Assembly (NCBI GenBank): GCA_021163425.1
Contig: JAGGWS010000038.1
Location: 10,418 to 74,417, forward strand
Source: Candidatus Omnitrophota bacterium
GTDB taxonomy: Bacteria > Omnitrophota > Gorgyraeia > Duberdicusellales > Duberdicusellaceae
Reading direction: 5' to 3'
Length of the DNA stretch: 64,000 nucleotides
Shown here: positions 21,009 to 62,598 of the stretch, one piece after another
How the letters are laid out: each line of letters opens with the position of its first letter
Position numbering within the stretch: position 1 is the first letter of the stretch
Made by a program: the position numbers and the translations under genes
The notes under the pieces: generated by a model
The model's input: the letters and a program-made list of their open reading frames with translations, nothing else
What the model was told of the DNA's origin: nothing
The model's database searches: none

Positions 21009-22426
21009 TTATCCTGAGGCTTAAGTAAAGGGAAGAAAATAACTTCTTTTAAGGAAGGCTGGTTAAGAAGAAGCATAACTAACCTGTCTACACCAATACC
21101 TAATCCGGTAGCAGGAGGCATCCCGTACTCTAAAGACTCAATAAAATCCTCATCAATCTTAGAAGAAATTTCTTCAGAATCTATTTGTTTTAAAAAGCGT
21201 TCTCTCTGCTCTATGGGATCATTAAGCTCAGAATAAGCATTAGCTAACTCTATACCCCCTATAAACAGTTCAAATCTTTCTACTAAGTTAGGGTTATCTT
21301 TCTTTGTCTTAGCTAAAGGAGACATCCAGGTATAAAAATCAGTCACAAATACCGGCTCTCCTCCAAAATACTTTTCCTCTATTAAATCCTCAATTAATTT
21401 TATAATCTGAGAACGAGAAAGGTTATCTTTAATATCAAAATGCTGACGGGCTTTTTCAATAAACTCAAAAGGCCCAGCATCAAATTCTATACCTAAGTCT
21501 TCTTTCAACTTTGAAGCTAAGGAAATTTTCTTAAATTTCTGGTTAAAATTTATACTAAAACCCTGGTAGTTAATAATTCCGGTAGGAGAAACTTCTTTAA
21601 CTAAGGCTCTTATGAGCTTTTCAGTAAGTTCCATCATAAAGGTATAATCCTGGTAAGCACAATAGACCTCAAGCATAGTAAACTCAGGGTTATGCTTTAA
21701 AGAAATACCTTCATTACGAAAAGAACGACCTAATTCATAGATTTTATCAAAACCACCTACCAGAAGTCTCTTAAGATACAATTCCGGAGCAATTCTTAAA
21801 TATATATCAATATCTAAAGCATTATGATGGGTTTTAAAGGGTTTCCCTGAAGCTCCTCCAGGAATAAGATGAAGAAAAGGTGTCTCTACCTCAACAAACC
21901 CCTGATTATCTAAAAACTCCCTAATTTTACCTATAAGTTTACTTCTCTTAATAAATAGAGAGCTAACCTGAGGATTAGCTATCAAATCTAAATAACGCTT
22001 TCGAAAACGGAGTTCAGTATCTTTTAAACCATGCCACTTCTCAGGTAAAGGTCTTAAACTCTTAGAAAGAAGCTTGAATTCAGAAACAAGAACTGTAACT
22101 TCAGCTGTCTTGGTCTTAAATAAACTCCCCTTAACACCCAAGACATCTCCTATATCTAAATTTTTAAAGAAAGAAAAGTTATCTTCTCCTATTAAATCCT
22201 TCCTTAAATAACACTGAATTTTCCCTGAAAAATCTCCTAAATCAAAGAAAATACTCTTCCCATGCTCTCTGCGACTAAGAAGACGCCCTCCAACGCTAAC
22301 TTCTCTTCCTTCAGAAAAATCCTCTTTTATTTTAATAATAGGGGCTTGCTTGGGAAAAGAATGTAGAGAATAGGGAGAACCTTTTTCTCTTCTTATTTTT
22401 TCTAATTTTTCTAATCTCTCTTGCAT
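21005..22426 (-). CDS. lysS: lysyl-tRNA synthetase, class II
   Basis: OB-fold anticodon-binding domain plus class II motifs 1-3 (FRNEGIS..., GGASGKPF, GLGIGVDRL). Confidence 0.9.
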   Translation of the reverse strand: MQERLEKLEKIRREKGSPYSLHSFPKQAPIIKIKEDFSEGREVSVGGRLLSRREHGKSIFFDLGDFSGKIQCYLRKDLIGEDNFSFFKNLDIGDVLGVKGSLFKTKTAEVTVLVSEFKLLSKSLRPLPEKWHGLKDTELRFRKRYLDLIANPQVSSLFIKRSKLIGKIREFLDNQGFVEVETPFLHLIPGGASGKPFKTHHNALDIDIYLRIAPELYLKRLLVGGFDKIYELGRSFRNEGISLKHNPEFTMLEVYCAYQDYTFMMELTEKLIRALVKEVSPTGIINYQGFSINFNQKFKKISLASKLKEDLGIEFDAGPFEFIEKARQHFDIKDNLSRSQIIKLIEDLIEEKYFGGEPVFVTDFYTWMSPLAKTKKDNPNLVERFELFIGGIELANAYSELNDPIEQRERFLKQIDSEEISSKIDEDFIESLEYGMPPATGLGIGVDRLVMLLLNQPSLKEVIFFPLLKPQDK

Positions 22427-22434
22427 AGAAGCAA

Positions 22435-22463
22435 ATTATATAGAAGAAAACCCCTTCTGTCAA
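22435..22463 (-). promoter_or_regulatory. sigma70-like promoter of lysS (TTGACA-N17-TATAAT); near-leaderless
   Basis: Minus-strand TTGACA at 22463-22458, a 17-nt spacer, and TATAAT at 22440-22435. The ATG is at 22426, about 9 nt after the -10. Confidence 0.5.
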
Positions 22464-22727
22464 ATGGGTTTTCTCTAAGGTATGTGTCAAGTATTTGGGG
22501 GTAGCTTTTTTAATGTTAGTTTGTCAAAAGGTTTAATGTAGACGTTTTTGGGTAAGTCTACGCCACTTTTATTTCCAGTCAATCCCTTTTACAATTTTCC
22601 CATTATTCACAAAAAAGCTACTACTATTCTTCCCTCAACTGCCCCACTAAATTTTACACTAACCACAGAATATTTTACAGTACCCTGTAAAAATCTTTGA
22701 TAAGGGACTGATAATCTGGAGAAAGGT

Positions 22728-24143
22728 TTATAGAGAAAGGAGATTTAAAATAGATTGGGAAGCCTTTTTAGCAGTAGCCATTGCTGAGATTACTGTCCCT
22801 TCCCCACCTACTATATCTCCTCCAGCATAGACCTTTTTAAGAGAAGTCTCCATGGTTTCGGGATTAACCAAGATATCGCCAGACTTATCCAGTTGAATCT
22901 GAGGAGTAGCAGAAGTCAATACTCTATTTGCCTTTAAACCAATAGCAATTATTACTACATCAGCCTCTATCTCAAATTCACTGCCTTCAATAGGAAAAGG
23001 CTTCCTTCTTCCTGAAGAATCGGGTTTGCCTAATTTACACTTCAAAGCTCTTATTTTTTTTACAAACCCTCGCTCATCGCCAATAAACTCTACCGGCTGA
23101 ACCAGAAATTCAAAATTAACTCCTTCTTCTTTAGCATGTTCAATCTCTAATCTTCTTGCCGGCATCTCCACCTCTGTTCTTCGGTAAATTACGGTAGTAT
23201 CAGGTTTTAAACCTTGCCCGAGCTGAACTCTTAAAGAAGAACGGGCAGCATCCATGGCAGTATTCCCTCCACCAATAACCACAACCTTCTCTCCAATATT
23301 TATAGGAGTATGAAATTGGGGGAATTTAAAAGCAGACATTAAGTTAATCCGGGTTAAAAACTCATTGGCTAAATAGATATTTCCCAGATTTTCTCCCTTT
23401 ATCCCTAAAAAAGAGGGAGTACCTGCTCCTAAACCTAAAAATATAGCCGAAAAATCTTTCTCCAGCTCAGATAAAGGTTTGGTCTTCCCTACTATAAAGT
23501 TAGTTATAAATTCTACTCCCATACTTTTAAGATAGTTAATTTCAAAGTCTAAGATAGGCCGAGGCAATCGGAAAGGAGGGATACCATACCTTAAAACTCC
23601 TCCCAATTGATGAAGGGCTTCAAAAACCACTACTTTTACGCCTTGACGAGCTAATTCTCCAGCACAGCACAACCCGGCTGGACCTGAACCTACTATCGCC
23701 ACCTTTTCTTTGAATTTTGAATTTTGAATTTTGAATGTTAAGTTTTGATAATTTTTTATCCCCCAATCTCCAATAAATCTTTCTAAAAAATGTATGTTTA
23801 TTGCTTCTGGAGAAGCAAAAGGCTTATCCTTATTTCTATTTAATATACAGAATTTTCTACATTGATACTCAGCAGGACAAACTCTTCCGCAGATAGCTGG
23901 AAAGTTATTCTTCTCCCGAATAGTAAGATAAGCAGATTTATAATCTCTCTGAGTAATTTCAAAGATAAATTTTTTTATATCTATTCCTACTGGACAACCC
24001 TGGATACATTTAGGTTCTTTACACTGAAGACACCTCTTAGCTTCTTCTTGAGCTCCTTCTTCAGAATAACCTAAAGCTACCTCTTCAAAACTCCTTATTC
24101 TTTCTGAAGGTAAAAGCTCCTTAATTTTTACAGGACCTTTCAT
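22728..24143 (-). CDS. nfnB: NADPH-dependent glutamate synthase small-subunit-like oxidoreductase (NfnB/SudA/GltD family)
   Basis: N-terminal 2x[4Fe-4S] motif (CLQCKEPKCIQGCPV ... CGRVCP), FAD and NAD(P) Rossmann motifs (VAIVGSGPAGL, VVVIGGGNTAMD). The track start at 24188 is a TTG; the ATG at 24143 (MKGPVKIK) is the likely start. Confidence 0.8.
   Translation of the reverse strand: MKGPVKIKELLPSERIRSFEEVALGYSEEGAQEEAKRCLQCKEPKCIQGCPVGIDIKKFIFEITQRDYKSAYLTIREKNNFPAICGRVCPAEYQCRKFCILNRNKDKPFASPEAINIHFLERFIGDWGIKNYQNLTFKIQNSKFKEKVAIVGSGPAGLCCAGELARQGVKVVVFEALHQLGGVLRYGIPPFRLPRPILDFEINYLKSMGVEFITNFIVGKTKPLSELEKDFSAIFLGLGAGTPSFLGIKGENLGNIYLANEFLTRINLMSAFKFPQFHTPINIGEKVVVIGGGNTAMDAARSSLRVQLGQGLKPDTTVIYRRTEVEMPARRLEIEHAKEEGVNFEFLVQPVEFIGDERGFVKKIRALKCKLGKPDSSGRRKPFPIEGSEFEIEADVVIIAIGLKANRVLTSATPQIQLDKSGDILVNPETMETSLKKVYAGGDIVGGEGTVISAMATAKKASQSILNLLSL
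23708..23735. repeat. heptamer tract (TTGAATT)x3.5 inside the nfnB coding sequence
   Basis: ctttgaattttgaattttgaattttgaatg encodes FKIQNSKFK just before the FAD-binding GxGxxG. Confidence 0.6.
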
Positions 24144-24154
24144 CTCTGAAACGT

Positions 24155-24191
24155 AACTTGACAAAATGTTTTCAAAAGAAAGTGTCAAGTT
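24155..24191. repeat. palindromic element copy (minus orientation) in the nfnA-nfnB intercistronic junction
   Basis: Minus-strand reading AACTTGACActttcttttgaaaacatttTGTCAAGTT. It shares its spacer with the 42719 copy at 17 of 19 positions, includes the nfnA stop codon, and ends 11 nt before the nfnB ATG. Confidence 0.7.
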
Positions 24192-25030
24192 ACGAGTTTA
24201 TAAAGTTTACAAATATGTTTTTCTTTATCCTCATAGATTTTATTGCGCAAACTGAGTTCAGTCCAGTCTATTAAATGAGCTTCAAATTCTGGGCCATCTA
24301 CACAACAAAATTTAATTTCACCTCCTACACTCACCCTACAACAGCCACACATCCCAGTCCCATCCACCATCAAAGCATTTAAAGAAACTAATGTCTTTAT
24401 CTTAAATCTTTGGGTAATTTCAGAAACCTTCTTCATCATTGGAATAGGACCAACTGCATAAATTAGTTTGTATCTATCGCCCTGACTTTCTGAACTTTCT
24501 AATAATTCTTTTAATACATCAGTAGTAAACCCCTTCCTGCCATAAGAACCATCATCAGTAGTAATATAAAACTCATCAGACATCTTTCTTAAATCTTCTT
24601 CTAAAATTAACAAATCTTTATTTCTTGCTCCTAATATAGTGGTTAAGTGGTTTCCTTCTTCTTTAAAAGCCCTGGCTAAAGGAAAAATCTCGGCAATCCC
24701 TACCCCTCCTCCTACTAAAATTACTCTTCCATAATTTTTAATTTCTGCAGGGTTGCCTAAAGGACCGACCAAACTATATAAACCATCTCCTTTGTTCAAT
24801 CTCCCTAAAAGTTTTGTAGTTAAACCTACTTCCTGAAAAATTAAACTAATACTTTGATTTTTTAAATTTTTATCTACAATAGTTAAGGGAATCCTTTCTC
24901 CTACTTCCGAAACCATCAAGATTACAAACTGACCAGGCTTAAAAGCTTTACAGATTTCTTCAGCTAAAACTTCTAAGTAAACTATACGGGGCTCTCTTTC
25001 AGCTAAAACTTTTTTATCTAATATCTTCAT
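24185..25030 (-). CDS. nfnA: ferredoxin-NADP reductase-like subunit (NfnA/SudB, PyrK-like)
   Basis: FAD/NAD-binding fold with a C-terminal CGCC...C 2Fe-2S motif (GMCGCCRV). Adjacent to the GltD-like partner. Confidence 0.75.
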   Translation of the reverse strand: MKILDKKVLAEREPRIVYLEVLAEEICKAFKPGQFVILMVSEVGERIPLTIVDKNLKNQSISLIFQEVGLTTKLLGRLNKGDGLYSLVGPLGNPAEIKNYGRVILVGGGVGIAEIFPLARAFKEEGNHLTTILGARNKDLLILEEDLRKMSDEFYITTDDGSYGRKGFTTDVLKELLESSESQGDRYKLIYAVGPIPMMKKVSEITQRFKIKTLVSLNALMVDGTGMCGCCRVSVGGEIKFCCVDGPEFEAHLIDWTELSLRNKIYEDKEKHICKLYKLVT

Positions 25031-25039
25031 TATTTAAAA

Positions 25040-26872
25040 CTACTCTACGGTAACGCTCTTAGCTAAATTTCTGGGCTTATCTACATCGTAACCCTTAAGT
25101 TCAGCAATATAATAAGCTAAAAGTTGTAAGGGGATTATGGTAATAAGAGGCGAGAGTTCTTCTTTAATTTTAGGGATATAAATAATTTGCCGAGAATATT
25201 TTTTAACTTGCTCATCTTCCTCAGTAGCCAAGATTATAATCCTTCCCCGACGAGCGAAAATCTCTTCTACATTAGAAAGCATCTTTGAATATACCGAAGA
25301 GTTATTTGCAATACAGACTACAGCTCTATATTCATCAATTAAAGCAATCGGACCGTGTTTCATTTCTCCGGCAGGATAGCCTTCAGCAGGAATATAAGAA
25401 ATCTCTTTTAACTTTAAAGCCCCTTCTAAGGCAGTAGGATAATTTATATTTCTGCCCAAATAGAGAAAAGCTCCAAAGTTAAGATATTTCTGAGCAATTT
25501 TTCTTATCTCATCTTTACTTTTAACTATCTTTAGTTGACAAGAAGGAATCTTTCTAAGAAGATTAAGATAAGAATTAATAAGGGAGTCAGGAAGAGTTCT
25601 TCTTAATTTCGCTAAATACAAAGAAAGTATCACCAAAACCATAATTTGAGCAGAATAAGCCTTGGTAGAAGCAACACTTATCTCCGGGCCAGCTAAAGTA
25701 TAGAGAACCTTGTCTGATTCTCTAACCAAGGTTGAACCTAAAACATTACAGATAGAAAGAATTTTTGCCCCTCTTTTTTTAGCTAACCTCACCCCAGCTA
25801 AGGTATCAGCTGTTTCTCCGGATTGACTTATAGCTATAAGTAAATCTCCCTTTCTTATTGTAGGCTGTTTGTAACGAAACTCACTGCCCAAATCTACTTC
25901 TACCGGTATATTTAAAAATTTTTCCATTAAGTATTTACCTACTAACCCGGCGTGGTAAGCGGTTCCACAGGCTACTATGTTAATTTTTTGAAGCTTTTTA
26001 AAAAAATCTCTAAAAGCAGTTAATTCTTTTAAGTTAAAATCCTTCTCTTTTAAATAATAAGAGAGAATTTTTTCTAAAACCTTAGGCTGCTCCAATATCT
26101 CTTTAAGCATAAAATGTTTAAAAACACCTTTCTTAACCTCTTCCTTACTAAAGCTTAAAAGCTCTTCTTTAAAAGAAACTTTCCTTCCCTGAAAATCAAT
26201 TACCTTAACTGAATCAGGAGTTAAAACTGCTATTTCTCTATCTTTTAGATAGACTACTCTGCGAGTATCTTCAATAAAGGCTGAACTATCTGAAGCTAAA
26301 AACTTTTCCTCATCTTTTATCCCTACAATTAAAGGAGAATCTAATCTTACCCCTACTAATTTACCTGGCTCATCTTTACTTATCACTGCTAAAGAAAAAG
26401 AACCCTTAAGGAGCAAGACAGTTTTTCTTACAGCTTCTTCTAAATTCTGATGATAATTTCTCTCTATTAAATGAGAAATTATTTCAGTATCAGTGTCAGA
26501 AGAAAACTTACAGCCTTTTTTAAGAAGGTCCTTCTTTAGACTTTCAAAATTTTCAATTATCCCGTTGTGGACTACGGCTATCCTTTTTTTACAGCCTAGG
26601 TGAGGATGGGCATTTTTGTCTGAAGGCACACCATGAGTTGCCCAGCGGGTATGAGCTATCCCTGAGCTCCCGGAAAAAGAAGTCTTACTTACTAATTCTT
26701 CTAAATTTTTTATTTTTCCCTTACGCTTTATAACCTTTAATCTATTCTTATCTAAAACAGCTATTCCTGCTGAATCGTATCCCCGATACTCTAAATTTTT
26801 AAGCCCCTTAATAAGGATTTCTTTAGCTTCTCTTTTTCCAGTATATCCAACTATACCACACATCTTCAGCAC
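25040..26872 (-). CDS. glmS: glutamine--fructose-6-phosphate aminotransferase
   Basis: N-terminal MCGIVGY catalytic Cys and two SIS domains. 610 aa. Confidence 0.9.
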
Positions 26873-27627
26873 ATTCTTATTGGAATACCCTTCTCTTTCA
26901 AATATTTTTTAGCTTCTCTTAAAGAATATTCTCCATAATGAAAGATAGAAGCAACTAACACCGCACTAGCCAAACCCTGAGCAAAAGCCTGATAAAGATG
27001 CTCTAAATTCCCTGCTCCTCCTGAAGCAATTACCGGGATATTCACTCTTTGAGAAACCTTACGGGTAAGTTCTAAATCATAGCCTTGTTTTGTCCCATCT
27101 CTATCCATACTGGTTAAAAGAATTTCTCCTCCTCCTAAAGCCTGAACTTCTTCAGCCCATTCTAAAACATCAATACCTGTAGGTTTTCTTCCTCCGTAGG
27201 TGTAAACTTCCCACTGAGAATCCTCAGTAAGCTTAGCATCAATAGCTACTACAATACACTGACTACCAAATTCCTGAGAAGCCATTTTTATAAAGTCGGG
27301 GTTCTCTACAGCAGAAGTATTAATAGAAACTTTATCTGCACCTGCTCTTAAAAGAGCTCTTATGTCTTCTAAGTTGCTTATCCCTCCTCCCACTGTAAAA
27401 GGGATAAAAACCTGTTCACAGGTTTCTCTTACTACCTCAATTATGGTTTTGCGAGCTTCAAAACTGGCAGTTATATCCAGAAAGACGAGTTCATCAGCGC
27501 CTTCTTTAGCATAGACTTTAGCCTGTTCTACTGGAGAGCCGGCATCTCTTAAATTAAGAAAATTTATCCCTTTTACTACCCGGCCTTCCTTAACATCTAA
27601 ACACGGTATTATCCTCTTGGCTAACAT
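26866..27627 (-). CDS. hisF: imidazole glycerol phosphate synthase cyclase subunit (HisF family)
   Basis: [17 protein letters not shown]-terminal motif and a (beta/alpha)8 fold. No other his genes are present in the window. Confidence 0.8.
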
Positions 27628-42617: not shown

Positions 42618-42718
42618 CTTATTTCTTACCTACAGGCATTATACAATAGATTTTCTCTCTTATCCCTAAAATTTTTTAACCTCTTCTTCAGAAAAGGCAG
42701 AAATCATTATAGTTCCTT

Positions 42719-42755
42719 AACTTGACACTTTATTTTCAAAACATTTTGTCAAGTT
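42719..42755. repeat. 37-bp palindromic intergenic element AACTTGACA-N19-TGTCAAGTT (reference copy)
   Basis: AACTTGACActttattttcaaaacatttTGTCAAGTT. The right arm supplies the TGA stop of the radical-SAM gene. Related copies are listed as separate features. Confidence 0.7.
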
Positions 42756-43753
42756 AGCCAGCATAAGGGGTCAGAAGCCAGATAATCCCCTTTTAAGGCA
42801 TAACTTAAAGCCCTGCATCCTGAACATCCTTGAACATTACAATTTCCACACTTACCTTTAAGGTTTCTTCTCTCTCTAAGAAGGTTTAAAACCGGAGAAC
42901 TCTCCCAGATTTTAGAAAGCCTATCTTTAAGAAGATTACCAATTTCTAAAGGAAATCTTCGACAGGGAAAGACTCCAGCCCCCGGCATTAAAGCACAGCC
43001 AAATTTACCTACCACACATTCTGCTCCAAATAATTCCTCCTGGAAATTTTTAAATTCTACTTTTAAAGCAGGAAATTTGACTGCTTCCTCAAAGAAATCC
43101 ACCCCTACTTTAGAAAATATTCTCTGATACACGCTTTTAAGTTCCAAAGGAGAAATCATCTGAGTATCTTTAATCTTCAAAGAATTCCCTAAAGGAATAA
43201 ATCTCTCTAAGATAACCCCCTTTATACCTAAGTCTTTAGAGAAATCCACCAGATAGTCTACTTCCTTTAAGTTTTTCTTAAGGAGAGTAAACATTAAAAT
43301 TAAGTTAAAACCTTCTCTCTGTAAAATTTTCACATTCTTTAAAACCTTATTAAACACCCCTTCTCCCCGGAAATAGTCATTAACCTCAGGAGTTACTCCT
43401 TCTAAGGAGAAAAAAATTGTATCTATCTTATCTTTAACCTTCCTCAAAGGGCCTATAAATCTATCTACGAGAGTTAAATTAGTAATTATATTTAAAGAAG
43501 ATAAAACTTCTGAAGAAGAAAGATAATCTATAAGTTTAAATAATTCTTTCTTCAAAAAAGGCTCTCCGCCAGTAAGAGAAAGACTTAAACTACTTCCCCA
43601 TAATTTCATAGTCTCTATTAAATTATCAGCCACCATTTTAAGATCCTGCCAGTTTAATTCTCTCTTTTGAGAAAAATCATCCTGATAACAATGTTTACAG
43701 AGTAAATTACAATTATCGGTTATATGCCACTGAATATGAAAGTCTTTCTCCAT
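42749..43753 (-). CDS. radical SAM enzyme with C-terminal SPASM/twitch Fe-S domain
   Basis: CNLLCKHC (CxxxCxxC) radical-SAM motif near the N-terminus. C-terminal Cys cluster CGNCNVQGCSGC... typical of SPASM maturases. Confidence 0.75.
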   Translation of the reverse strand: MEKDFHIQWHITDNCNLLCKHCYQDDFSQKRELNWQDLKMVADNLIETMKLWGSSLSLSLTGGEPFLKKELFKLIDYLSSSEVLSSLNIITNLTLVDRFIGPLRKVKDKIDTIFFSLEGVTPEVNDYFRGEGVFNKVLKNVKILQREGFNLILMFTLLKKNLKEVDYLVDFSKDLGIKGVILERFIPLGNSLKIKDTQMISPLELKSVYQRIFSKVGVDFFEEAVKFPALKVEFKNFQEELFGAECVVGKFGCALMPGAGVFPCRRFPLEIGNLLKDRLSKIWESSPVLNLLRERRNLKGKCGNCNVQGCSGCRALSYALKGDYLASDPLCWLT

Positions 43754-47637: not shown

Positions 47638-47804
47638 ACCCCCCCTTCTTAGAAACTAATTTTATCACAAAGCCTAAAATCTGTAAAAGGAGATTCCTAT
47701 CTTGGTTATTATATCTTGACTATTGTATCTTGGTTATTAGTTATAGTTACACCGCCAGGTCTAATTAAACTTATTCATTGGAAATTGGAAATTTACATAG
47801 CTGT

Positions 47805-47841
47805 AACTTGACATTTTACTTTCGAAGTATTTTGTCAAGTT
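47805..47841. repeat. palindromic element copy (plus orientation, variant spacer) with AAATTTACATAGCT 5' extension
   Basis: AACTTGACAttttactttcgaagtatttTGTCAAGTT, preceded by GGAAATTGGAAATTTACATAGCTGT and followed by a short octamer array. Confidence 0.65.
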
Positions 47842-47878
47842 TACACGTTTTAACGTTTATATGTTTTCACGTTTCTAT
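47842..47878. repeat. short YACGTTYW octamer array (about 4 units)
   Basis: tacacgtt ttaacgtt tatatgtt ttcacgtt tc, directly abutting the palindromic element. Confidence 0.5.
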
Positions 47879-47887
47879 AACTTTAAA

Positions 47888-48838
47888 CTATCTTTTTCTA
47901 AACAAAGCCAAGAAAAACCCCTCCATAACTTCTGTGGGAAGAATCCTCTTGGTAAACTTCAAGCTCTGAGAAAAACTCTTATTTCTCCATTTAGTTAAGC
48001 CGTTTTGATAATTGGGAATAGGCAAATTTATCTCTTCTAAATAAACCTGGGGCTTAAACTTCTCTAAAGTCCAGTTTACTACTTCTTCGTTCTCTTCAGG
48101 AGAAAAAGTACAGGTAGAATATAAAAGCGAACCTCCCTTTTTTAAAGACTCAATCCCCGAAAAAAGTAAGCGTCTCTGTTTGTACTGAGCTTCTTTAATT
48201 TTCCTATAAGACCAATAAGAAAAAGTTTTCCAATCACTAACTAAAAAGTTAGCCTCTGAAGAACAGGGAGCATCTAATAAAACTTTATCAAAATACTGAG
48301 GATACTTTCTATAGATTAAGGCCCCTTCTCCCAGATAAATCTTAAGAAGTCTTTCCTGAGCCTGTTTTCTTAGATTAGCCAGAAGTTTATAATAGCGGGG
48401 CTTTATCTTTTCTACAGCTAAAACTTCAGCCTTTCCTTGAGTATCAGAGATTATTTGAGTAGTCTTTCCTCCAGGAGCTGAACACAAATCTAATATCTTA
48501 TCCTGTGGCTCAGGAGATAAAACCCAGACTGCCAATATACTGGAAAGATTTTGAAAATAAACCCAACCTTCCCGGTAAAAAATCTTCTCCTCAAACTCTC
48601 TTTGAGAAGGTTTAATAAGAACAAAACCTCCTTTATACCAGCTTACCTCTTTAAATTTTATATTTTGCTTCTTTAATTCTCCTGCAAGTATCTCATAACT
48701 TACTTTTATCTTGTTTATCCGAAAAGTAGGTAGCTTGGGGGTTAAAAAAGAATTCAGGATAGAAAAGTATTTATGAGGATAAATCTCTTTTATCCTTTCT
48801 CTAAACTCAGAAGGAAGTCTGTAAATAAGTTTATCCAT
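47888..48838 (-). CDS. NOL1/NOP2/Sun-family RNA cytosine-C5 methyltransferase (RsmB/RsmF-like)
   Basis: SAM-binding motif LDLCSAPGGKT and catalytic motifs DAPCSSEA (motif IV) and YSTCT (motif VI). Confidence 0.75.
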   Translation of the reverse strand: MDKLIYRLPSEFRERIKEIYPHKYFSILNSFLTPKLPTFRINKIKVSYEILAGELKKQNIKFKEVSWYKGGFVLIKPSQREFEEKIFYREGWVYFQNLSSILAVWVLSPEPQDKILDLCSAPGGKTTQIISDTQGKAEVLAVEKIKPRYYKLLANLRKQAQERLLKIYLGEGALIYRKYPQYFDKVLLDAPCSSEANFLVSDWKTFSYWSYRKIKEAQYKQRRLLFSGIESLKKGGSLLYSTCTFSPEENEEVVNWTLEKFKPQVYLEEINLPIPNYQNGLTKWRNKSFSQSLKFTKRILPTEVMEGFFLALFRKR

Positions 48839-49751
48839 AAGGATGAGAAAAGCCCCTTCCTAAACCCCTCTTTAAAGCATAATCTACTACCTCTTTATAT
48901 TCCTTAAGAGTTATTTTTCGAGAAAGTTCAGAGAAATTATAAGCCTTATAACAAGGCCAGTATTGGTCCATTATATTCAGGTAAGTATTTTTAGAAATCT
49001 TTTCAGCAATAAAATCTATAACTTTAAAAGAGCCTGAAATATTATTAGGAAGAACTAAATGCCTTATAATCAAACCTCTCTGAGCAACTCCCTGGCTATC
49101 TATTACTAAATCCCCCACCTGTCTATGCATCTCTAAAACTGCTTCTTGACAAACTTCCCAATAATCCTCTACTAAAGAATATTTTTTAGCAAGTTTATTA
49201 TCCGAATATTTCATATCAGGCATATATATATCAAAAACTCCTTCCACAATCTTTAAAACTTGTTTAGAATCATAACCTCCGCTATTATAGACCAAGGGAA
49301 GCCTTAAGCCTTTATTGCGAGCAATAACTAAGGCTTCAATTATCTGGGGTAAAATATGGGTAGGGCTAACCAGGTTCATGTTGTGAGCTCCCTGACTTTG
49401 AAGATAGAGCATAATCTTAGCCAATCTCTCAGAATCCATCTCTTCTCCTTCTCCTAACTGAGAAATAGTGTAATTCTGACAATACTGACAGGCTAAATTA
49501 CAAAAAGAAAAAAATATTGCACCTGACCCTCCCCTTCCTACAAGTTCAGGTTCTTCTCCAAAATGAAGGTTAAAACTGGAAACCAGAGCAGATTTTCCTG
49601 TCCGGCAAAAGCCTTTCTCTCCTCTGAGCCTGTTCACCTTACAGCTGCGAGGACAAATTACACATTCTCCAAGAAGTTCTAAGAGACTATCTTTAATCTT
49701 TTCTAAGGAGGCTGAAGATAACTGGAGGTAAGAAGGGGTAAAATTTTCCAT
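48831..49751 (-). CDS. radical SAM protein, PflX-like (putative glycyl-radical activating-type enzyme)
   Basis: CNLACQYCQN radical-SAM motif preceded by a CPRSC...C cluster. About 300 aa, as in the PflX/YjjW family. Confidence 0.6.
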   Translation of the reverse strand: MENFTPSYLQLSSASLEKIKDSLLELLGECVICPRSCKVNRLRGEKGFCRTGKSALVSSFNLHFGEEPELVGRGGSGAIFFSFCNLACQYCQNYTISQLGEGEEMDSERLAKIMLYLQSQGAHNMNLVSPTHILPQIIEALVIARNKGLRLPLVYNSGGYDSKQVLKIVEGVFDIYMPDMKYSDNKLAKKYSLVEDYWEVCQEAVLEMHRQVGDLVIDSQGVAQRGLIIRHLVLPNNISGSFKVIDFIAEKISKNTYLNIMDQYWPCYKAYNFSELSRKITLKEYKEVVDYALKRGLGRGFSHPYG

Positions 49752-51858: not shown

Positions 51859-51930
51859 TTTACACGTTTATACGTTTACACGTTCACACGTTTCTACGTT
51901 CACACGTTTCTACGTTTTTACGTTCATACG
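51859..51930. repeat. tandem array of about 9 copies of the 8-bp unit YACGTTYW
   Basis: tacacgtt tatacgtt tacacgtt cacacgtt tctacgtt cacacgtt tctacgtt tttacgtt catacgtt, read off directly. Confidence 0.8.
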
Positions 51931-51966
51931 TTTTAACATATTATTTTGAAAACATTTTGTCAAGTT
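51931..51966. repeat. palindromic element copy with degenerate left arm (TTTAACA) and conserved spacer/right arm
   Basis: ttttaacatattattttgaaaacatttTGTCAAGTT, 7 nt after the stop of the Cas4-like nuclease gene and abutting the octamer array. Confidence 0.6.
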
Positions 51967-51972
51967 AGGGGG

Positions 51973-53465: not shown

Positions 53466-53604
53466 TTTTACGTTCACACGTTCATACGTTTACACGTTTA
53501 CACGTTTTTACGTTTACACGTTTTTACGTTTACACGTTTTCACGTTTACACGTTCATACGTTTTTACGTTCATACGTTTACACGTTCATACGTTTACACG
53601 TTTT
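53466..53604. repeat. tandem array of about 17 copies of the 8-bp unit YACGTTYW
   Basis: tacgttca cacgttca tacgttta cacgttta cacgtttt tacgttta cacgtttt ... Continuous 8-bp periodicity over about 140 bp, immediately upstream of the glgC remnant start. Confidence 0.85.
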
Positions 53605-53636
53605 AACATATTATTTTGAAAACATTTTACCAAGTT
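53600..53636. repeat. degenerate palindromic element copy (TTTAACA ... TACCAAGTT)
   Basis: ttttaacatattattttgaaaacatttTACCAAGTT. Same spacer as the 51931 copy; both arms are mutated. About 18 nt after the stop of the 1002-aa gene. Confidence 0.5.
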
Positions 53637-53653
53637 ACGCTGGTTATTGGTTA

Positions 53654-58667: not shown

Positions 58668-58695
58668 TATAACTTTCAAAACATTTTGTCAAATT
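58668..58695. repeat. partial palindromic element (conserved spacer plus right arm TGTCAAATT)
   Basis: tataactttcaaaacatttTGTCAAATT between the stop of the 510-aa gene (58700) and the start of the pseudopilin gene (58658). The left arm is not recognisable. Confidence 0.45.
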
Positions 58696-58699
58696 ACGC

Positions 58700-60232
58700 T
58701 TATTTTCTCTTAAAGAAAAGTATTTTCTGGAGTTTTTCTATAAAGGTCTCTTCTTTCACAGTCCAACTCCATTGAGCAGGGGTGGGGTCTTCCTCATAGA
58801 GAGAAATTAACCCATCTCCATCTATATCTAAGCCAGCTTTGACTTTGAATAAGTGAACTCCCAAACTTAGACCAGAAAAACTCACGCTTTTTTCTTTCTT
58901 CCAGGAAGACCACTCCGAACCATCTAAAGAATAACTGAACAAACACCCCTCACGGGAAGCCTGATAATAAAATGTAGCTTCTTTCTCAGGAGTTAAACTG
59001 GAAGGACCACTTATTATTCGAGTATCAGGAGCCAATACTACTAAGTCAATATCATCAGAAAATACAGGAGATACATTTCCAGCATAATCTTCAAACTTAA
59101 TATAAACTGTCTTCTTCCCGGATATATCCGGCTCTTTCAGAAGCCAATCCTCTATTAAAGCCTTGAATTCCAGCGGATTATCCATCTCCGTATCAAAAAC
59201 ACCATCATTGGATATGTAGATATACTTTATTCCACTTACCTCATCAGAAGCTGTAATTTTTAGAGTAACATAAGGAGAATTAGTTACAGGGTCATCATTA
59301 TTTATCACCACACTACCCTGAGGGGAATGAGTATCTACAATAAAGCTCCAGGCTTTGCTAACCTGGTTTCCTATGTTGTCCTCTGCCTTTATTAAAACTA
59401 TATTTTCTCCATCGGGCAAACTTCCCTTATAGGAATAAATATTCTTATCCTCAGCAAACTTTCCAGAGACTTCTTCTCCATTCAGGAAAAACTGTAAACT
59501 ACTTAAGTTGACCCCTGAATGTAAATCTTCTACCTTACAACTTATCTCCACAAAGCTCTGGTTAATAAGCTCAGAAACAGCCGGGGTTAACTCAGTTACA
59601 GAAGGATGAGTAGTATCTACCCAAATCTCAAAGCTTAGAGGTTGCCCCCAGACTTTTCCTCCTCCATAAGGGGCTACATAAAAGATATGTTTTCCATCAG
59701 AGAGGCTGTCCTGAGGATACTGATAAAAAGAAAACTCTGTATCTACCTCCCCATCAGGAAGACTATCTAAAGAGAAACTAAACCCTTTTATTAAAACAGG
59801 TGGGTTAATAACAACAATCCAGTAAAAATAGGGGTCATTATCTTTCTGCCATACTGACGGAGAAATTTCAAAGCCACCCAGATGAGTTTTTGCACGAAGT
59901 TCAGCTATTTCATAGAGCACTTCTCCTACCAGGACAGGCCAGTAACAACTAAAATTAATCCCTATCTGAGTACTTGCAACTTCTACAGGCACTGAAAACA
60001 ACTGTCCGACAACAAAGTAAGTAAGGCGGCGCTCACTAAAAGAAGCAAAACCCAGACTGGTGCCTATACTTATAAGCTCAATCTCATAATTAGAAGAGGC
60101 AGCCTGCTCAGCATATACCCCTGATACAATATAAAGGATAAAGAATAAAATAATAATTTGAAATTTGAAATTTGAAATTTGAAATTTATTACTTTGAAAT
60201 TTGAAATTTGAAATTTGAAATTTATTACTCAT
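58700..60232 (-). CDS. secreted protein of unknown function with a repeat-encoded N-terminus
   Basis: The N-terminus MSNKFQISNFKFQ-SNKFQISNFKFQ is encoded by a 36-bp tandem duplication, then a hydrophobic signal-like segment IIILFFILYIVSGVYA-EQ. The ATG overlaps the TGA of the upstream ATPase gene (ATGA). Confidence 0.45.
   Translation of the reverse strand: MSNKFQISNFKFQSNKFQISNFKFQIIILFFILYIVSGVYAEQAASSNYEIELISIGTSLGFASFSERRLTYFVVGQLFSVPVEVASTQIGINFSCYWPVLVGEVLYEIAELRAKTHLGGFEISPSVWQKDNDPYFYWIVVINPPVLIKGFSFSLDSLPDGEVDTEFSFYQYPQDSLSDGKHIFYVAPYGGGKVWGQPLSFEIWVDTTHPSVTELTPAVSELINQSFVEISCKVEDLHSGVNLSSLQFFLNGEEVSGKFAEDKNIYSYKGSLPDGENIVLIKAEDNIGNQVSKAWSFIVDTHSPQGSVVINNDDPVTNSPYVTLKITASDEVSGIKYIYISNDGVFDTEMDNPLEFKALIEDWLLKEPDISGKKTVYIKFEDYAGNVSPVFSDDIDLVVLAPDTRIISGPSSLTPEKEATFYYQASREGCLFSYSLDGSEWSSWKKEKSVSFSGLSLGVHLFKVKAGLDIDGDGLISLYEEDPTPAQWSWTVKEETFIEKLQKILFFKRK
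60156..60227. repeat. perfect 36-bp tandem duplication, each unit containing (TTTGAAA)x4 + TTTATTAC
   Basis: tttgaaatttgaaatttgaaatttgaaatttattac occurs twice back-to-back. It encodes the first 24 residues of the 58700-60232 protein. Confidence 0.85.
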
Positions 60233-61881
60233 CCTCCCAACACCCTTAAAACTTCCTGAAGAGAAGTTTTAGCTTCTACTATTTTGGAGAAGCCATCTTC
60301 TTTCAAGGTTCTAAATCCTTTCTTCTGAGCATAAACTCTAATCTCATCGGAAGAGGCTTTCTCCACAATTAAATTGTCAAAACCTGAATCAAGCTCTAAC
60401 ACCTCAAATATAGCTACTCTGCCCTTAAAACCTGTCCGGCTACATTCCTGACATCCTGAAGGTTCAAAAATACCCACCTGTTTGTCAGAAGGTAAAGGCT
60501 CCAATCCCAGAGATTTCCTCAATTGACTCAAAGATATACTCCTTTCTCTTTTACAGTTAGAACATAAAACCCTCACTAATCTCTGGGCTATAACCCCTTT
60601 TAAAGAAGAAGCTACCAGAAATGGTTCAAGGCCCATATCTATAAGTCTTGTTACTGCTGAAGGGGCATCGTTGGTATGAAGGGTTGATAAAACTAAGTGT
60701 CCGGTTAGACTTGCCTGAATAGCAATCTGGGCTGTTTCTCTATCTCTAATTTCGCCAACCATCACAATATCAGGGTCATGCCTTAAAATTGAACGCAACC
60801 CGGAAGCAAAAGTAAGCCCTACAGCAGGATTAACCTGAATCTGTTTGGCAAAATCTAAATGATATTCTACAGGGTCTTCAATAGTAATTATGTTTTTTTC
60901 CACACTCCTTATTTTTAAAAGAGAGGCATAGAGAGTGGTGGTTTTTCCTGAACCAGTAGGACCGGTAACTAAGATTATTCCTGCGGTCTGCTTTAAAAGC
61001 TGTTTATATTTAGTTAAGTTTTCCTTAGAAAAACCTAACTCCTCAAGGGAAAATAAACCTTTCTCTCTCTCTAAAAGCCTTAAAACAATACTCTCTCCTT
61101 CTACCAGAGGGATAACTGAGATTCTTACATCAATAGGCCGATTGGAAACTTGAACCTGAAATCTTCCATCCTGAGGCCGTCTCCTCTCAGCAATATCTAA
61201 GTTTGCCATAATTTTCAAGCGGGCAATTATGGCATTATAAAGATAAAGAGGAGGCGCTTTAAAAGAATGAAGAACCCCATCAATCCTGAAACGGATACTT
61301 ACCTTATCTCCTCGGGGCTCAATATGGATATCTGAGGCTCTTAAATTCACTGCTTCAGCAATCAATAAGTCTACCAGCTTTATTACTGAAGGCTTCTCTT
61401 TCTGGACTTTAACTTCTTCTAACTGGCTTTCTTCTGAGGGGGCAAAAAATGTCTTAATAAACGAATCTAAATTATCCTTATTAACAAGGTATAACTTAAT
61501 AAACAACCCAGTATGAAACCGCAACTCTTCTAAAGGCTCCAGTTTGAAGGGGTCAGATAAGCCCACTTTCAAAATATTTCCTTCCTGCTGAAGAGGAATG
61601 ATCCTGAATTTAGTTATAAACTCCTGAGGAACCAGTTCTAAAACCTCCTTGGCGGGAATAAAATCCTTCAAGGAAAAAATCTCTATATGAAGTTTGCTCG
61701 ACAAAAAATTTATTAAAGTTTCTTCGTCCATAAGCCCCAGGGTTCTTATAGAATCGGCTAAAGTAGTCTGACTCCTCTCTTTTTCTATCTCTAAAGTTAT
61801 TGCCTGTTCCTGAGTGATAAGGCCTTCGGAAACTAAACTCTTAACCAGAGAATCTCTCAACTCTCTTTTTTCTAACTCCAT
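60229..61881 (-). CDS. type II secretion / type IV pilus assembly ATPase (GspE/PilB family)
   Basis: N-terminal T2SE_N-like domain, Walker A GPTGSGKTTT, Asp/His boxes and a tetracysteine motif (CSNCK...CQEC). Confidence 0.9.
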   Translation of the reverse strand: MELEKRELRDSLVKSLVSEGLITQEQAITLEIEKERSQTTLADSIRTLGLMDEETLINFLSSKLHIEIFSLKDFIPAKEVLELVPQEFITKFRIIPLQQEGNILKVGLSDPFKLEPLEELRFHTGLFIKLYLVNKDNLDSFIKTFFAPSEESQLEEVKVQKEKPSVIKLVDLLIAEAVNLRASDIHIEPRGDKVSIRFRIDGVLHSFKAPPLYLYNAIIARLKIMANLDIAERRRPQDGRFQVQVSNRPIDVRISVIPLVEGESIVLRLLEREKGLFSLEELGFSKENLTKYKQLLKQTAGIILVTGPTGSGKTTTLYASLLKIRSVEKNIITIEDPVEYHLDFAKQIQVNPAVGLTFASGLRSILRHDPDIVMVGEIRDRETAQIAIQASLTGHLVLSTLHTNDAPSAVTRLIDMGLEPFLVASSLKGVIAQRLVRVLCSNCKRERSISLSQLRKSLGLEPLPSDKQVGIFEPSGCQECSRTGFKGRVAIFEVLELDSGFDNLIVEKASSDEIRVYAQKKGFRTLKEDGFSKIVEAKTSLQEVLRVLGG

Positions 61882-62128: not shown

Positions 62129-62173
62129 ACTAAAAGTATAGGCCGTCTCTTCTCCTGCTCAACGTCGGCAGAT

Positions 62174-62322
62174 TCACACGTTCACACGTTCTCACGTTCA
62201 CACGTTCATACGTTCTCACATTCACACGTTCACACGTTCTCACGTTCATACGTTCTCACGTTCATACGTTCTCACGTTCATACGTTCACACGTTCACACG
62301 TTTTTACATTTATACGTTCTAC
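62174..62322. repeat. tandem array of about 19 copies of the 8-bp unit YACGTTYW
   Basis: cacgttca cacgttct cacgttca cacgttca tacgttct cacattca ... The longest array in the window. Lies in the 800-bp non-coding region between the PilB-like gene and hup. Confidence 0.85.
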
Positions 62323-62525
62323 GAAACCGCTTTAAACTTTTATCCCAATTATTATAATACGAGTTCTATTTTTTGAAAAGTGCTTAGTTTTTGGATACAG
62401 AAAAAAAGACGCCGGCATACACTTAAACTCAAACTCCGGAGTATTCTACCAACTATTAGTTATTGATTATTGATATTGATTGAGGATCGCCCTCGATTCC
62501 TCAAAAATTTATTGAAAATTTACAT

Positions 62526-62561
62526 AGCTTGACATTTATTCTGAAAAAATTCTGTCAAATT
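62526..62561. repeat. palindromic element variant AGCTTGACA-N18-TGTCAAATT with AAATTTACATAGCT 5' extension
   Basis: gaaaatttacatAGCTTGACAtttattctgaaaaaattcTGTCAAATTacgttct. It shares the 5' extension with the 47805 copy and is followed by one ACGTT unit. Confidence 0.55.
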
Positions 62562-62598
62562 ACGTTCTTAGACTATTAGCAAAAAATATAATAAATTC

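What the first reader, a model, noticed from the sequence alone, without database searches (positions are those of the whole stretch)
24155..24191. Palindromic element wedged between nfnA and nfnB, overlapping the nfnA stop and ending 11 nt before the nfnB start
The NfnA-like and NfnB/GltD-like subunits form an obligate heterodimer. Their genes are separated here by a 41-nt gap occupied almost entirely by the 37-bp element, with no recognisable Shine-Dalgarno before the nfnB ATG at 24143. An RNA hairpin formed by the element would sit exactly where translational coupling happens, which suggests the element tunes subunit stoichiometry or is a protein-binding site on the mRNA. The supplied track calls a TTG 45 nt upstream that would run through the element; I consider the ATG (MKGPVKIK) the real start.
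Basis: partly seen in the sequence, partly recalled or inferred. Interest (0 to 1): 0.55.

Follow-up and report, generated by a model that had tools for sequence, protein, structure and literature searches.

The report
REP-like palindrome between nfnA and nfnB
The palindrome between nfnA and nfnB is real, but it is one copy of a dispersed palindromic repeat family found across Candidatus Omnitrophota genomes and tied to a RAYT-like HUH tyrosine transposase gene, not a device made for this gene pair.

Summary
A 43-bp palindrome (24152-24194) has perfect 12-bp arms, CGTAACTTGACA / TGTCAAGTTACG. It contains the nfnA stop codon and ends 8 nt before the nfnB ATG at 24143. No Shine-Dalgarno sequence is visible. 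Orthologues confirm that ATG as the start; the upstream TTG frame hits a stop inside the element in two relatives.

The element is not specific to nfnAB. The window holds four full and three partial copies. A pattern scan found the same core, AACTTGACA-N18-20-TGTCAAGTT, many times in more than 15 Omnitrophota genomes. The inner stem differs between genomes but stays self-complementary.

Copies sit in tandem, divergent and convergent gene contexts. They often supply the upstream gene's stop codon. They are gained, lost or decayed between the window and a relative about 90% identical in DNA.

In related genomes a 290-aa protein gene is flanked on both sides by these palindromes at a syntenic locus. 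The protein matches Pfam Y1_Tnp, and its best NCBIfam hit is REP-associated tyrosine transposase. This is a REPtron-like arrangement.

Best reading: a REP-like element inserted at the nfnA/nfnB junction. Any effect on subunit ratio is an untested side effect.

The parts
24152..24194 (.). Copy c1: 43-bp palindrome with 12-bp perfect arms (24152-24163 and 24183-24194) and a 19-nt AT-rich, partly self-complementary centre.
   Evidence: (I3). A 42-nt stretch is 100% identical to a copy at another locus of MAG B32_G15 (L058 2687-2728).
24185..25030 (-). nfnA-like gene (PyrK-like FAD/NAD(P)-binding subunit, 281 aa). The last codons, CTC GTA ACT TGA (L V T stop), are supplied by the element.
   Evidence: PRK06222, 369 bits against cut-off 220. 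C-termini differ between relatives..KLYKLVT*..KLYKLDI*..KLYNLC*.
22728..24143 (-). nfnB / GltD-like gene starting at ATG 24143 (471 aa, MKGPVKIKELL...).
24186..24188 (-). TTG overlapping the nfnA stop (TTGA). It is the start of the 486-aa ORF called in the supplied track and is rejected as the start.
   Evidence: The 15 extra residues have no counterpart in homologues. The equivalent frame is closed by TAG or TAA inside the element in L108 and L109.
42716..42756 (.). Copy c2, full palindrome. The stop of the radical-SAM/SPASM ORF (42749..43753) lies in an arm. It is upstream of a Na+/H+ exchanger gene.
   Evidence: (I4).
47802..47841 (.). Copy c3, full palindrome with a compensated centre (TACTTTCGAAGTA). 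It lies in a 250-nt spacer between RsmB/F-like and UPF0047 genes and abuts an 8/16-nt tandem array.
   Evidence: (I8).
62525..62564 (.). Copy c4, diverged full copy with an N18 spacer, in a roughly 800-nt region between divergently oriented ORFs.
   Evidence: It folds weakly.
51934..51970 (-). Partial copy h5, with one arm replaced by an (ACGTTYAC)n array. The orthologous site in B32_G15 holds a full palindrome (L068 5109-5145).
53604..53641 (-). Partial copy h7, next to a 17-copy 8-nt array. The orthologous site in B32_G15 holds a full palindrome (L068 7614-7650).
58668..58700 (-). Partial copy h6, between two tandem ORFs. The orthologous site in B32_G15 holds a full copy plus a half copy (L017 5045-5098).

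Best explanation
The palindrome at 24152-24194 is one copy of a REP-like (repetitive extragenic palindrome) family that is widespread in Candidatus Omnitrophota.

What is shown:
- The family has a conserved 9-bp stem segment, AACTTGACA / TGTCAAGTT.
- The segments inside and outside it differ between genomes but stay complementary.
- Copies lie scattered in short intergenic spaces and often supply the upstream gene's stop codon.
- Copies are gained, lost and decayed between close relatives.
- In related genomes they flank a vertically inherited gene at a syntenic locus, on both sides. The gene encodes an HUH / Y1 tyrosine nuclease with a C-terminal helix-turn-helix. Its closest curated family is REP-associated tyrosine transposase.

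What is inferred:
- That protein recognises the palindrome and spreads or maintains the copies. Recognition is most likely of a single-stranded DNA hairpin during replication, as in E. coli TnpA-REP and IS200/IS605. The helix-turn-helix may bind the double-stranded TTGACA arms.
- The nfnA/nfnB copy is an old insertion. It is present in relatives whose NfnB is 93% and 83% identical and absent in one at 72%. It replaced the last codons and stop of nfnA and pushed nfnB 41 nt downstream.
- nfnB still starts at its original ATG. Initiation there is presumably by ribosomes that have just terminated on nfnA and thereby melted the hairpin.
- Any change in the NfnA:NfnB ratio is a by-product of the insertion, not the reason the element exists.
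For: The element is a repeat family, not unique:
- nhmmer finds 7 copies in the window with E from 3e-14 to 3e-6.
The large majority are from more than 15 Omnitrophota MAGs or SAGs, with up to 30 distinct copies per genome among the loci fetched.

The stem covaries. In 70 copies from 25 source groups (genomes or metagenome contigs), 80.7% of cells pair, against 40% or less when partners are slid. Sixteen of 22 pairs change on both sides. Cells with a change on both sides number 307 against 142 in shuffles, with 0 of 500 shuffles as high.

Copies turn over between relatives:
- B32_G15, about 90% identical in DNA, has a 211-bp insertion carrying the palindrome between two genes that overlap in the window at 32879-32889.
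- Three partial window copies are full palindromes at the orthologous B32_G15 sites.

The nfnAB junction differs between relatives: an element plus 220 bp more in L108, a diverged copy in L109, and none in L110, where the gap is 10 nt.

The family is tied to a RAYT-like gene:
- 289-294-aa ORFs match Pfam Y1_Tnp at 33.7-37.4 bits against a gathering score of 23.
- Their best NCBIfam hit is NF047646, REP-associated tyrosine transposase, at E 4e-16 over model positions 7-146 of 146.
- The motifs NHIH and Y[MI]HLNP are present, with a C-terminal HTH.
- In 15 of 17 metagenome loci at 65-94% identity, the palindrome lies 23-26 nt before the start, or 141 nt in one gene cut by its contig end, and/or 12-26 nt after the stop. 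The arms change with clade: CTTGACA, GTTGACA, CTTTACA.
- Homologues at 40-45% identity are flanked by other 37-45-bp palindromes.
- The flanking genes are conserved across these loci.

Published REP behaviour matches. RAYT genes are flanked by inverted REPs (PMC2817692). REP ends often supply stop codons to flanking ORFs (PMC3733652).
Against: - No RAYT-like gene lies in the 64-kb window (tblastn). The cognate gene of the window's own lineage was not found. The nearest is L150, from the same Guaymas metagenome, whose flanking palindromes share the arms and the CTTTTGAAAAC centre but not the whole inner stem.
- The NCBIfam score of 59 bits is below the equivalog cut-off of 80.
- The canonical 5' GT[AG]G tag of REPs is absent.
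- Mobilisation by the protein is inferred from association only.
- The one clean filled-versus-empty site shows a 12-17-nt direct duplication. IS200/IS605-type HUH transposition is not known to produce this.
- The nfnAB copy has kept its arms over the divergence separating 83%-identical NfnB proteins. This could mean the copy is useful where it sits.
Confidence: 0.78

Rival explanations
1. This is a dedicated translational-coupling or stoichiometry device. On this view the RNA hairpin evolved, or is kept, to set the NfnA:NfnB ratio or to bind a protein on the nfnAB mRNA.
For: - The hairpin holds the nfnA stop and ends 8 nt before an ATG with no Shine-Dalgarno sequence.
- The copy is retained at this junction in three lineages.
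- From my own knowledge, REP hairpins are known to alter relative expression within operons. Examples are the E. coli malE-malF REP, and Liang, Rudd and Deutscher 2015 on REPs within 15 nt of stop codons. That paper could not be retrieved here.
Against: - The same element sits at many unrelated junctions.
- The spacing to the ATG varies from 11 to about 243 nt among close relatives.
- A relative without the element also lacks a Shine-Dalgarno sequence, with a 10-nt gap, so coupling does not need the hairpin.
- Stem mismatches show no sense-strand G:U bias, 40 against 43.
- This copy is in the minority orientation for its type.
Confidence: 0.1
2. This is an operator for a dimeric DNA-binding regulator. 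TTGACA-N19-TGTCAA half-sites would control a large regulon, and the HTH-bearing protein, or another factor, would act as a transcription factor.
For: - The 9-bp arms are conserved across species at fixed spacing.
- Copies are somewhat more common in divergent than in convergent spacers, 16 against 7.
- The associated protein has an HTH.
- The symmetry of stem mismatches fits recognition at the DNA level.
Against: - A regulator reading only the arms would not require the centre to stay self-complementary down to a 1-3-nt loop, with compensatory changes.
- Copies occur inside obligate operons and between overlapping genes.
- Copies occur in convergent spacers.
- Sites are gained and lost between genomes about 90% identical.
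- Neighbouring genes share no functional theme.
Confidence: 0.07
3. This is an intrinsic terminator or a 3'-end mRNA-stabilising hairpin that arose in place.
For: In 50 of 91 tandem cases the element lies within -7 to +13 nt of the upstream stop codon. The stems are stable.
Against: - There is no U tract and the stem is AT-rich. The terminator scan does not call it.
- It sits between the genes of an obligate heterodimer and in divergent spacers.
- The conserved sequence and the link to the Y1 gene are not expected of terminators.
Confidence: 0.04
4. This is a promoter. The arm's TTGACA would act as a -35 box driving nfnB or other downstream genes.
For: TTGACA is the sigma-70 -35 consensus, and the organism uses it: a perfect TTGACA-17-TATAAT stands before lysS at 22463-22435.
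Against: At 16-18 nt from either TTGACA the sequence is nnTGTC, which is not a -10 box. The promoter scan does not call the element. The palindromic centre is unexplained by this reading.
Confidence: 0.01

Closest known systems
E. coli REP / BIME elements with RayT (TnpA-REP), the 'REPtron' (PMC2817692, PMC3479197, PMC6006769)
   Same: - Short palindromes in high copy number in extragenic space.
- Often inside operons and at stop codons.
- Clustered with other repeat modules into mosaics.
- Clade-specific sequence.
- A Y1/HUH gene at a conserved (syntenic) chromosomal locus, flanked by copies on both sides.
   Different: - No 5' GT[AG]G tag.
- The stem is longer and nearly perfect (37-45 bp, loop of 1-3 nt) in most genomes.
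- A 9-bp block of the stem is conserved across many species.
- The protein is about 290 aa with a C-terminal HTH, and it scores below the NCBIfam RAYT cut-off.
TIRYT / TIRtron (Di Nocera 2013, PMC3733652), equal to TnpA-Y1 subclass 2.1 (Quentin 2018, PMC6006769)
   Same: - Protein length.
- The Y motif Y[IV]HLNP and an NHxH HuH motif.
- A C-terminal HTH of the HTH_23 / HTH_28 type.
- Inverted repeats flanking the gene.
- Some TIR families are self-complementary and moderately abundant.
   Different: - Quentin et al. found no REP-like sequences near subclass 2.1 genes. Here the flanking repeats are full hairpins that are also abundant genome-wide.
- The GGGGWSAS consensus of TIRs is absent.
- Assignment to the subclass rests on motifs only, not on a phylogeny.
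REPINs of Pseudomonas (PMC3116915, PMC3337134)
   Same: A long hairpin-forming, non-autonomous element, vertically co-inherited with a single RAYT. Insertion polymorphisms occur between close relatives.
   Different: [quoted passage not shown] Here a single near-perfect palindrome is the unit. Tandem pairs about 9 nt apart also occur (L044, L017, L047).
Subterminal hairpins of IS200/IS605 (IS608, ISDra2)
   Same: An HUH/Y1 enzyme that recognises DNA hairpins. There is a weak sequence match to ISDra2 TnpA (2XM3; E 0.04-0.4).
   Different: Those hairpins are imperfect, occur once at each IS end and travel with the transposase gene. Here the hairpins far outnumber the gene.
REP effects on operon expression (malE-malF REP; REPs within 15 nt of stop codons; cited from my own knowledge)
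   Same: A stable hairpin sits right at the stop codon of the upstream cistron of an operon. This is the geometry reported to alter upstream and downstream gene expression.
   Different: No expression data exist for this organism. The effect is not shown here.

Membership tests
REP (repetitive extragenic palindrome) | Short palindrome able to form a stem-loop | tested here: met
   12-bp perfect arms. The ssDNA fold has z about -5. Across the family, 80.7% of stem cells pair.
REP (repetitive extragenic palindrome) | Many dispersed copies, mostly extragenic | tested here: met
   7 copies in 64 kb. 149 copies in the fetched loci, of which 114 lie between called ORFs and 10 were scored intragenic by a crude ORF caller. 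A whole-genome count was not possible.
REP (repetitive extragenic palindrome) | 5' GT[AG]G (or CGTC) tag at the foot of the hairpin | tested here: not met
   Columns outside the arms are variable and mutually complementary (GT..AC, CT..AG, AAC..GTT, TA..TA). No conserved tetranucleotide is seen.
REP (repetitive extragenic palindrome) | A cognate Y1 gene flanked by the same palindromes (REPtron) | tested here: met
   L008, L083, L087 and L150, plus 15 of 17 metagenome loci at 65-94% identity. Not met within the window itself.
REP (repetitive extragenic palindrome) | Repeat sequence changes together with the associated protein clade | tested here: met
   The arms are CTTGACA, GTTGACA or CTTTACA by clade. 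Homologues at 40-45% identity carry unrelated palindromes.
RAYT / TnpA-REP (the associated protein) | Y1_Tnp domain with an HuH motif and a Y...NP tyrosine motif | tested here: met
   PF01797 at 33.7-37.4 bits against a gathering score of 23. Invariant N75 H76 H78 and Y135 H137 N139.
RAYT / TnpA-REP (the associated protein) | Passes the NCBIfam equivalog model NF047646 | tested here: not met
   54-62 bits against a cut-off of 80. It is nevertheless the only meaningful hit and covers the whole model.
RAYT / TnpA-REP (the associated protein) | Low copy number, fixed chromosomal locus, vertical inheritance | tested here: inconclusive
   The up- and downstream genes are conserved across 11-12 loci whose proteins are 65-94% identical. 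Copy number per genome could not be counted.
RAYT / TnpA-REP (the associated protein) | Binds and cleaves its REP as single-stranded DNA | not testable with these tools
   Needs biochemistry.
TnpA-Y1 subclass 2.1 / TIRYT | Y[IV]HLNP motif, about 240-aa or longer protein, C-terminal HTH (HTH_23 / HTH_28 / Bac_DnaA_C) | tested here: met
   YMHLNP or YIHLNP and 289-294 aa. HTH_7, HTH_22, HTH_23, HTH_28 and HTH_38 hits at E 3e-5 to 4e-2, one of them at the gathering score. Compared with Table 1 of PMC6006769. No phylogenetic placement was done.
TnpA-Y1 subclass 2.1 / TIRYT | Flanking TIRs with the consensus GGGGWSAS | tested here: not met
   The flanking repeats are the AACTTGACA palindromes.
Intrinsic terminator | G+C-rich stem followed by a U tract | tested here: not met
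   The scan of 22400-27200 does not call the element. The tail is GUUUCAGAG.
Sigma-70 promoter | -10 hexamer 16-18 nt after the TTGACA | tested here: not met
   That position reads nnTGTC, and the scan does not call it.
Known RNA families (Rfam 15) | Match at the gathering score | tested here: not met
   No hit in the window at gathering. Only chance-level hits in 24050-24300, with E of 0.6 or more.

The most novel reading that the evidence does not exclude
The AACTTGACA palindromes would be the cognate REPs of HTH-bearing, subclass-2.1-type Y1 (TIRYT-like) proteins. A 2018 survey of that subclass reported no associated REPs.

On this reading they form a new, tag-less REP class. It would have been inherited vertically through much of the candidate phylum Omnitrophota, with a stem block identical to the -35 hexamer.

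The system might be domesticated: hairpins at stop codons and gene junctions, including nfnA/nfnB, would shape operon expression or chromosome handling genome-wide.
Probability: 0.4. Interest if true: 0.55.

Novelty: new member of a known kind. Interest (0 to 1): 0.4.

Why it matters
For annotation, the result fixes the nfnB start at ATG 24143, not the TTG. It also warns that in these genomes ORFs running into AACTTGACA arms get element-derived stop codons, spurious upstream starts or both.

For biology, it shows that streamlined, uncultivated Omnitrophota carry an abundant REP / RAYT-like system. No paper in the searchable library links this phylum with REPs or RAYTs. The system provides a natural series of filled and empty sites.

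The associated protein type, Y1 plus HTH, has had unclear repeat partners. That partnership could now be tested directly with oligonucleotides of known sequence.

It also gives a concrete case for asking whether a repeat dropped between the genes of an obligate heterodimer perturbs subunit balance.

Tried and rejected
- **Rfam.** Nothing was found at gathering or at permissive thresholds.
- **Promoter and terminator readings.** Both were rejected after the consensus scan and the context statistics.
- **RNA-level selection.** I tested it through G:U against A:C mismatches on the sense strand and found no bias, 40 against 43.
- **Integron attC site.** The foot resembles RYYYAAC...GTTRRRY, for example gcccTAAC...GTTAgggc in L007. 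I rejected this because copies are scattered among housekeeping genes rather than in cassette arrays, and they are near-perfect palindromes without the attC asymmetries. I did not search for intI.
- **DNA uptake sequence pairs.** Rejected because the 8-mer ACTTGACA hardly occurs outside the palindromes: 6 of 8 window occurrences are in the three full copies that have exact arms.
- **Classical MITE with target-site duplication.** Rejected because the bases just outside the arms are complementary to each other, not direct repeats.
- It matched no Pfam family, so I discarded it.
- **PDB sequence searches.** With the protein or its profile they did not reach E. coli TnpA-REP (4ER8). Only weak hits appeared, to ISDra2 TnpA and to HTH domains.
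- **Cognate gene of the window's own lineage.** Not found.
- **Paper on REPs near stop codons.** It could not be retrieved, so it is cited from memory only.

Full report
**1. The observation**

On the gene (minus) strand the junction reads ...AAA CTC GTA ACT TGA CAC TTT CTT TTG AAA ACA TTT TGT CAA GTT ACG TTT CAG AG ATG AAA GGT CCT GTA AAA....

The perfect arms are 12 bp, CGTAACTTGACA / TGTCAAGTTACG, at 24152-24163 and 24183-24194. Weaker pairing continues to the centre (I3).

- The nfnA ORF (24185..25030, minus) ends with a TGA inside the arm.
- The next ATG is at 24143, 41 nt after the stop.
- The TTG of the 486-aa ORF (24188) overlaps the stop as TTGA.
- No Shine-Dalgarno sequence is visible.

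The palindrome is far beyond chance. NCBIfam supports the gene names.

**2. Which start codon**

All 120 best homologues cover only 96-97% of the TTG ORF, and most are 470-478 aa long.

I fetched three orthologous junctions:

| Locus | NfnB identity | Junction | TTG frame |
|---|---|---|---|
| L108 | 93% | Same palindrome at the nfnA stop, plus about 220 bp of mosaic repeat before the ATG (gap 260 nt) | Closed by TAG inside the element |
| L109 | 83% | Diverged copy, AACTTGACATTTAACTTCCGAAGTAAAGTGTAAAGTT | Closed by TAA inside the element |
| L110 | 72% | No element; TGA-attcatttaa-ATG | Not applicable |

All orthologues begin M[KRE]x[EG]PVKIKEL.

**3. The element is a repeat family**

A profile search finds seven copies in the window:
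- Full copies at 24152, 42716, 47802 and 62525.
- Partial copies at 51934, 53604 and 58668.

The great majority are Candidatus Omnitrophota MAGs or SAGs from more than 15 genomes, each with many copies.

The window itself is about 90-92% identical in DNA to MAG B32_G15 from Guaymas Basin.

Across genomes the 9-bp arms are constant. This is partly by construction of the search. The 18-19 nt between the arms, and the 2-5 nt outside them, differ by genome yet stay complementary. Examples of the inner stem are C20 CTTGTGACAATGTCACAAG, KR11 TTTCGAGTATTACTCGTTT and CSMAG CTTAAGGTTGAACCTTAAG.

On 70 copies from 25 source groups (genomes or metagenome contigs):
- 80.7% of cells pair, against 40% or less when partners are slid.
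- 16 of 22 pairs change on both sides.
- No shuffle reaches the observed covariation.

**4. What it is not**

- **Promoter.** The position 16-18 nt after either TTGACA reads nnTGTC. The organism does use canonical promoters: a perfect one precedes lysS at 22463-22435.
- **Terminator.** There is no U tract, and copies occur in divergent spacers. Contexts are 91 tandem, 16 divergent and 7 convergent, against a background of 553, 60 and 56. One copy lies between the genes of an obligate heterodimer.
- **RNA-level element.** Stem mismatches read on the sense strand are G:T 40 and A:C 43. The family therefore shows no RNA-specific selection.
- **Known RNA family.** Rfam has nothing.

One regularity stands out. 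In 50 of 91 tandem cases the core lies within -7 to +13 nt of the upstream stop. In 19 of these the stop overlaps the core by 1-7 nt, so it is supplied at least partly by the arm: the TGA of TTGACA, or a TAA formed with the first AA of AACTTGACA as in cTAAC. This is what happens to nfnA. Published REP families do the same (PMC3733652).

**5. Turnover between close relatives**

- B32_G15 carries a 211-bp insertion between two genes that overlap by 11 nt in the window (32879-32889). The insertion holds a palindrome 100% identical to c1 over 42 nt, runs of 8-nt repeats and a half element. The new stop of the upstream gene again comes from the arm.
- The three partial window copies correspond to full palindromes in B32_G15. 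In the window, one arm of h5 has been replaced by an (ACGTTYAC)n array, and a similar array abuts h7.
- Other modules recur next to copies, in a mosaic that resembles BIMEs. Examples are ACAAGGGCACTTAGAAAAAATATAACAAAATTTATTGCTATAGCAATTAAAATTGTTAAC, GAGGACCGCCCTCGAT and (TTGAAAAT)n.

**6. The associated gene**

I clustered all ORFs of the pattern-selected loci. One family lay directly against the palindromes in several genomes.

The proteins have these features:
- They are 289-294 aa long and match Pfam Y1_Tnp above the gathering score.
- NF047646, REP-associated tyrosine transposase, is the only meaningful NCBIfam hit. E is 4e-16 with full model coverage, but the score of 54-62 bits is below the cut-off of 80.
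- HuH NHIH and Y[MI]HLNP motifs are invariant.
- The C-terminus is an HTH.

Flanking palindromes:
- In L008 three copies precede the gene and one follows it. In L083 two copies precede and one follows.
- A metagenome scan with the protein alignment returned 80 loci.
- In 15 of the 17 loci with 65-94% identity, the pattern finds the palindrome 23-26 nt before the start (141 nt in one truncated gene) and/or 12-26 nt after the stop.
- A sixteenth locus, L121, has variant arms. The seventeenth, L124, starts at its contig edge and matched nothing by pattern.
- The arms vary by clade.
- Homologues at 40-45% identity are flanked by other palindromes of the same size.

The neighbouring genes are the same across these loci. 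This indicates a fixed, vertically inherited locus.

L150 comes from the same Guaymas metagenome as L108. It is flanked by copies with the window's arms and CTTTTGAAAAC centre, and the upstream gene there also ends ...CTA ACT TGA in the arm.

The window itself has no such gene.

**7. Mechanism**

Shown: the repeat family, the covariation, the insertion polymorphism and the tight, conserved association with an HUH/Y1 gene.

Inferred, by analogy with E. coli TnpA-REP and IS200/IS605 (PMC3479197, PMC6006769):
- The protein recognises the element as a single-stranded DNA hairpin.
- It cuts and rejoins DNA next to the hairpin, which spreads or maintains the copies.
- Its HTH may hold the duplex arms.

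Two facts do not fit neatly. The one clean insertion is bounded by a 12-17-nt duplication. The window-type copies also show a weak orientation preference relative to gene direction, about 9 to 2 or 3.

For nfnAB the consequences are as follows. The insertion rewrote the last nfnA codons and its stop. nfnB kept its ATG. In the mRNA the stop lies in the 5' arm, so a terminating ribosome must have melted the stem. This would free the region 8 nt upstream of the ATG for re-initiation. That step is plausible but untested.

The element-free relative couples the genes across 10 nt, also without a Shine-Dalgarno sequence.

**8. Comparison with known systems**

The system behaves like a REP / RAYT (REPtron) system. 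It passes the tests of palindrome, dispersal, flanking of the Y1 gene and co-variation with the protein. It fails the GT[AG]G tag and the NCBIfam cut-off.

By motifs, length and HTH, the protein resembles TnpA-Y1 subclass 2.1, also called TIRYT. Quentin et al. reported no associated REPs for that subclass. Di Nocera et al. reported flanking TIRs, some of them self-complementary and moderately abundant.

I therefore file the element as a new member of the REP / TIR-repeat kind. I do not file it as a canonical GTAG REP.

**9. Verdict**

The functional interpretation is largely replaced: the element is a generic genome repeat that happens to sit in the nfnAB junction.

Interest is moderate. The single copy is ordinary for this genome. 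The family, its spread across many Omnitrophota genomes and its link to an HTH-bearing Y1 protein appear undescribed in the searchable literature, and the link is directly testable.

Noticed in passing
window 47839-47878, 51859-51933, 53470-53603, 62173-62320: Tandem arrays with an 8-nt period, (ACGTTYAC)n, of up to 17 copies. Each lies beside or within about 200 nt of a palindrome copy. At the orthologous B32_G15 sites the arrays have other units: (TTGAAAAT)n, AACCAATG-like and GACGATA-like. Their origin and role are unknown.
   Followed up: partly
window 60155-60229: A 7-nt tandem array, AATTTGA x 9.7, spans the stop of ORF 60229..61881 and the start of ORF 58700..60232.
   Followed up: no
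L058 2640-2860 versus window 32870-32900: The 211-bp repeat insertion in B32_G15 is bounded by a 12-17-nt direct duplication, GGAACATTTTTG / GCAACATTTTTG. The duplication recreates both the stop region of one gene and the start of the next, which overlap in the window. IS200/IS605-type HUH transposition is not known to make such duplications.
   Followed up: partly
L108 2768-2990: In the 93% relative the nfnA-nfnB spacer has grown to 260 nt. The added mosaic holds a module shared with L068 and L055 that contains its own palindrome (TTGCTATAGCAA), the module GAGGACCGCCCTCGAT, and (TTGAAAAT)n runs. It ends in a collapsed arm, AACTTGTTACG.
   Followed up: partly
window 22435-22463 (minus strand): A perfect sigma-70 consensus promoter, TTGACA-17-TATAAT, lies just upstream of lysS (start at 22426). 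A second hairpin, AGAAAACCCCTT/AATGGGTTTTCT, lies at 22445-22474.
   Followed up: no
L108 4599-7416 versus window 21005-22426: Synteny breaks right after nfnB. The window has lysS. The 93% relative has a class II aaRS with tRNA-synt_2b and HGTP_anticodon domains, followed by a PEP-utilising enzyme gene with intein and LAGLIDADG hits.
   Followed up: no
L014, L035, L046, L064, L084, L095, L103: A MAG labelled Dehalococcoidia (A0_31) carries many copies with the same arms, AAACTTGACATAAGCTGTTTCACAGCTTATGTCAAGTTT. Several MAGs labelled Planctomycetia or Elusimicrobia carry window-like copies. This could be mis-binning, mislabelling or horizontal spread of the system.
   Followed up: no
L068 1502-2070 versus window 48838: B32_G15 has about 570 bp of extra, apparently coding sequence between the orthologues of ORFs 47888..48838 and 48831..49751, which overlap in the window.
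   Followed up: no
L044 123-204, L017 5045-5098, L047 1130-1186: Copies occur as tandem pairs only 8-9 nt apart, and L008 has three copies within 260 nt upstream of the Y1 gene. These are BIME-like clusters.
   Followed up: no
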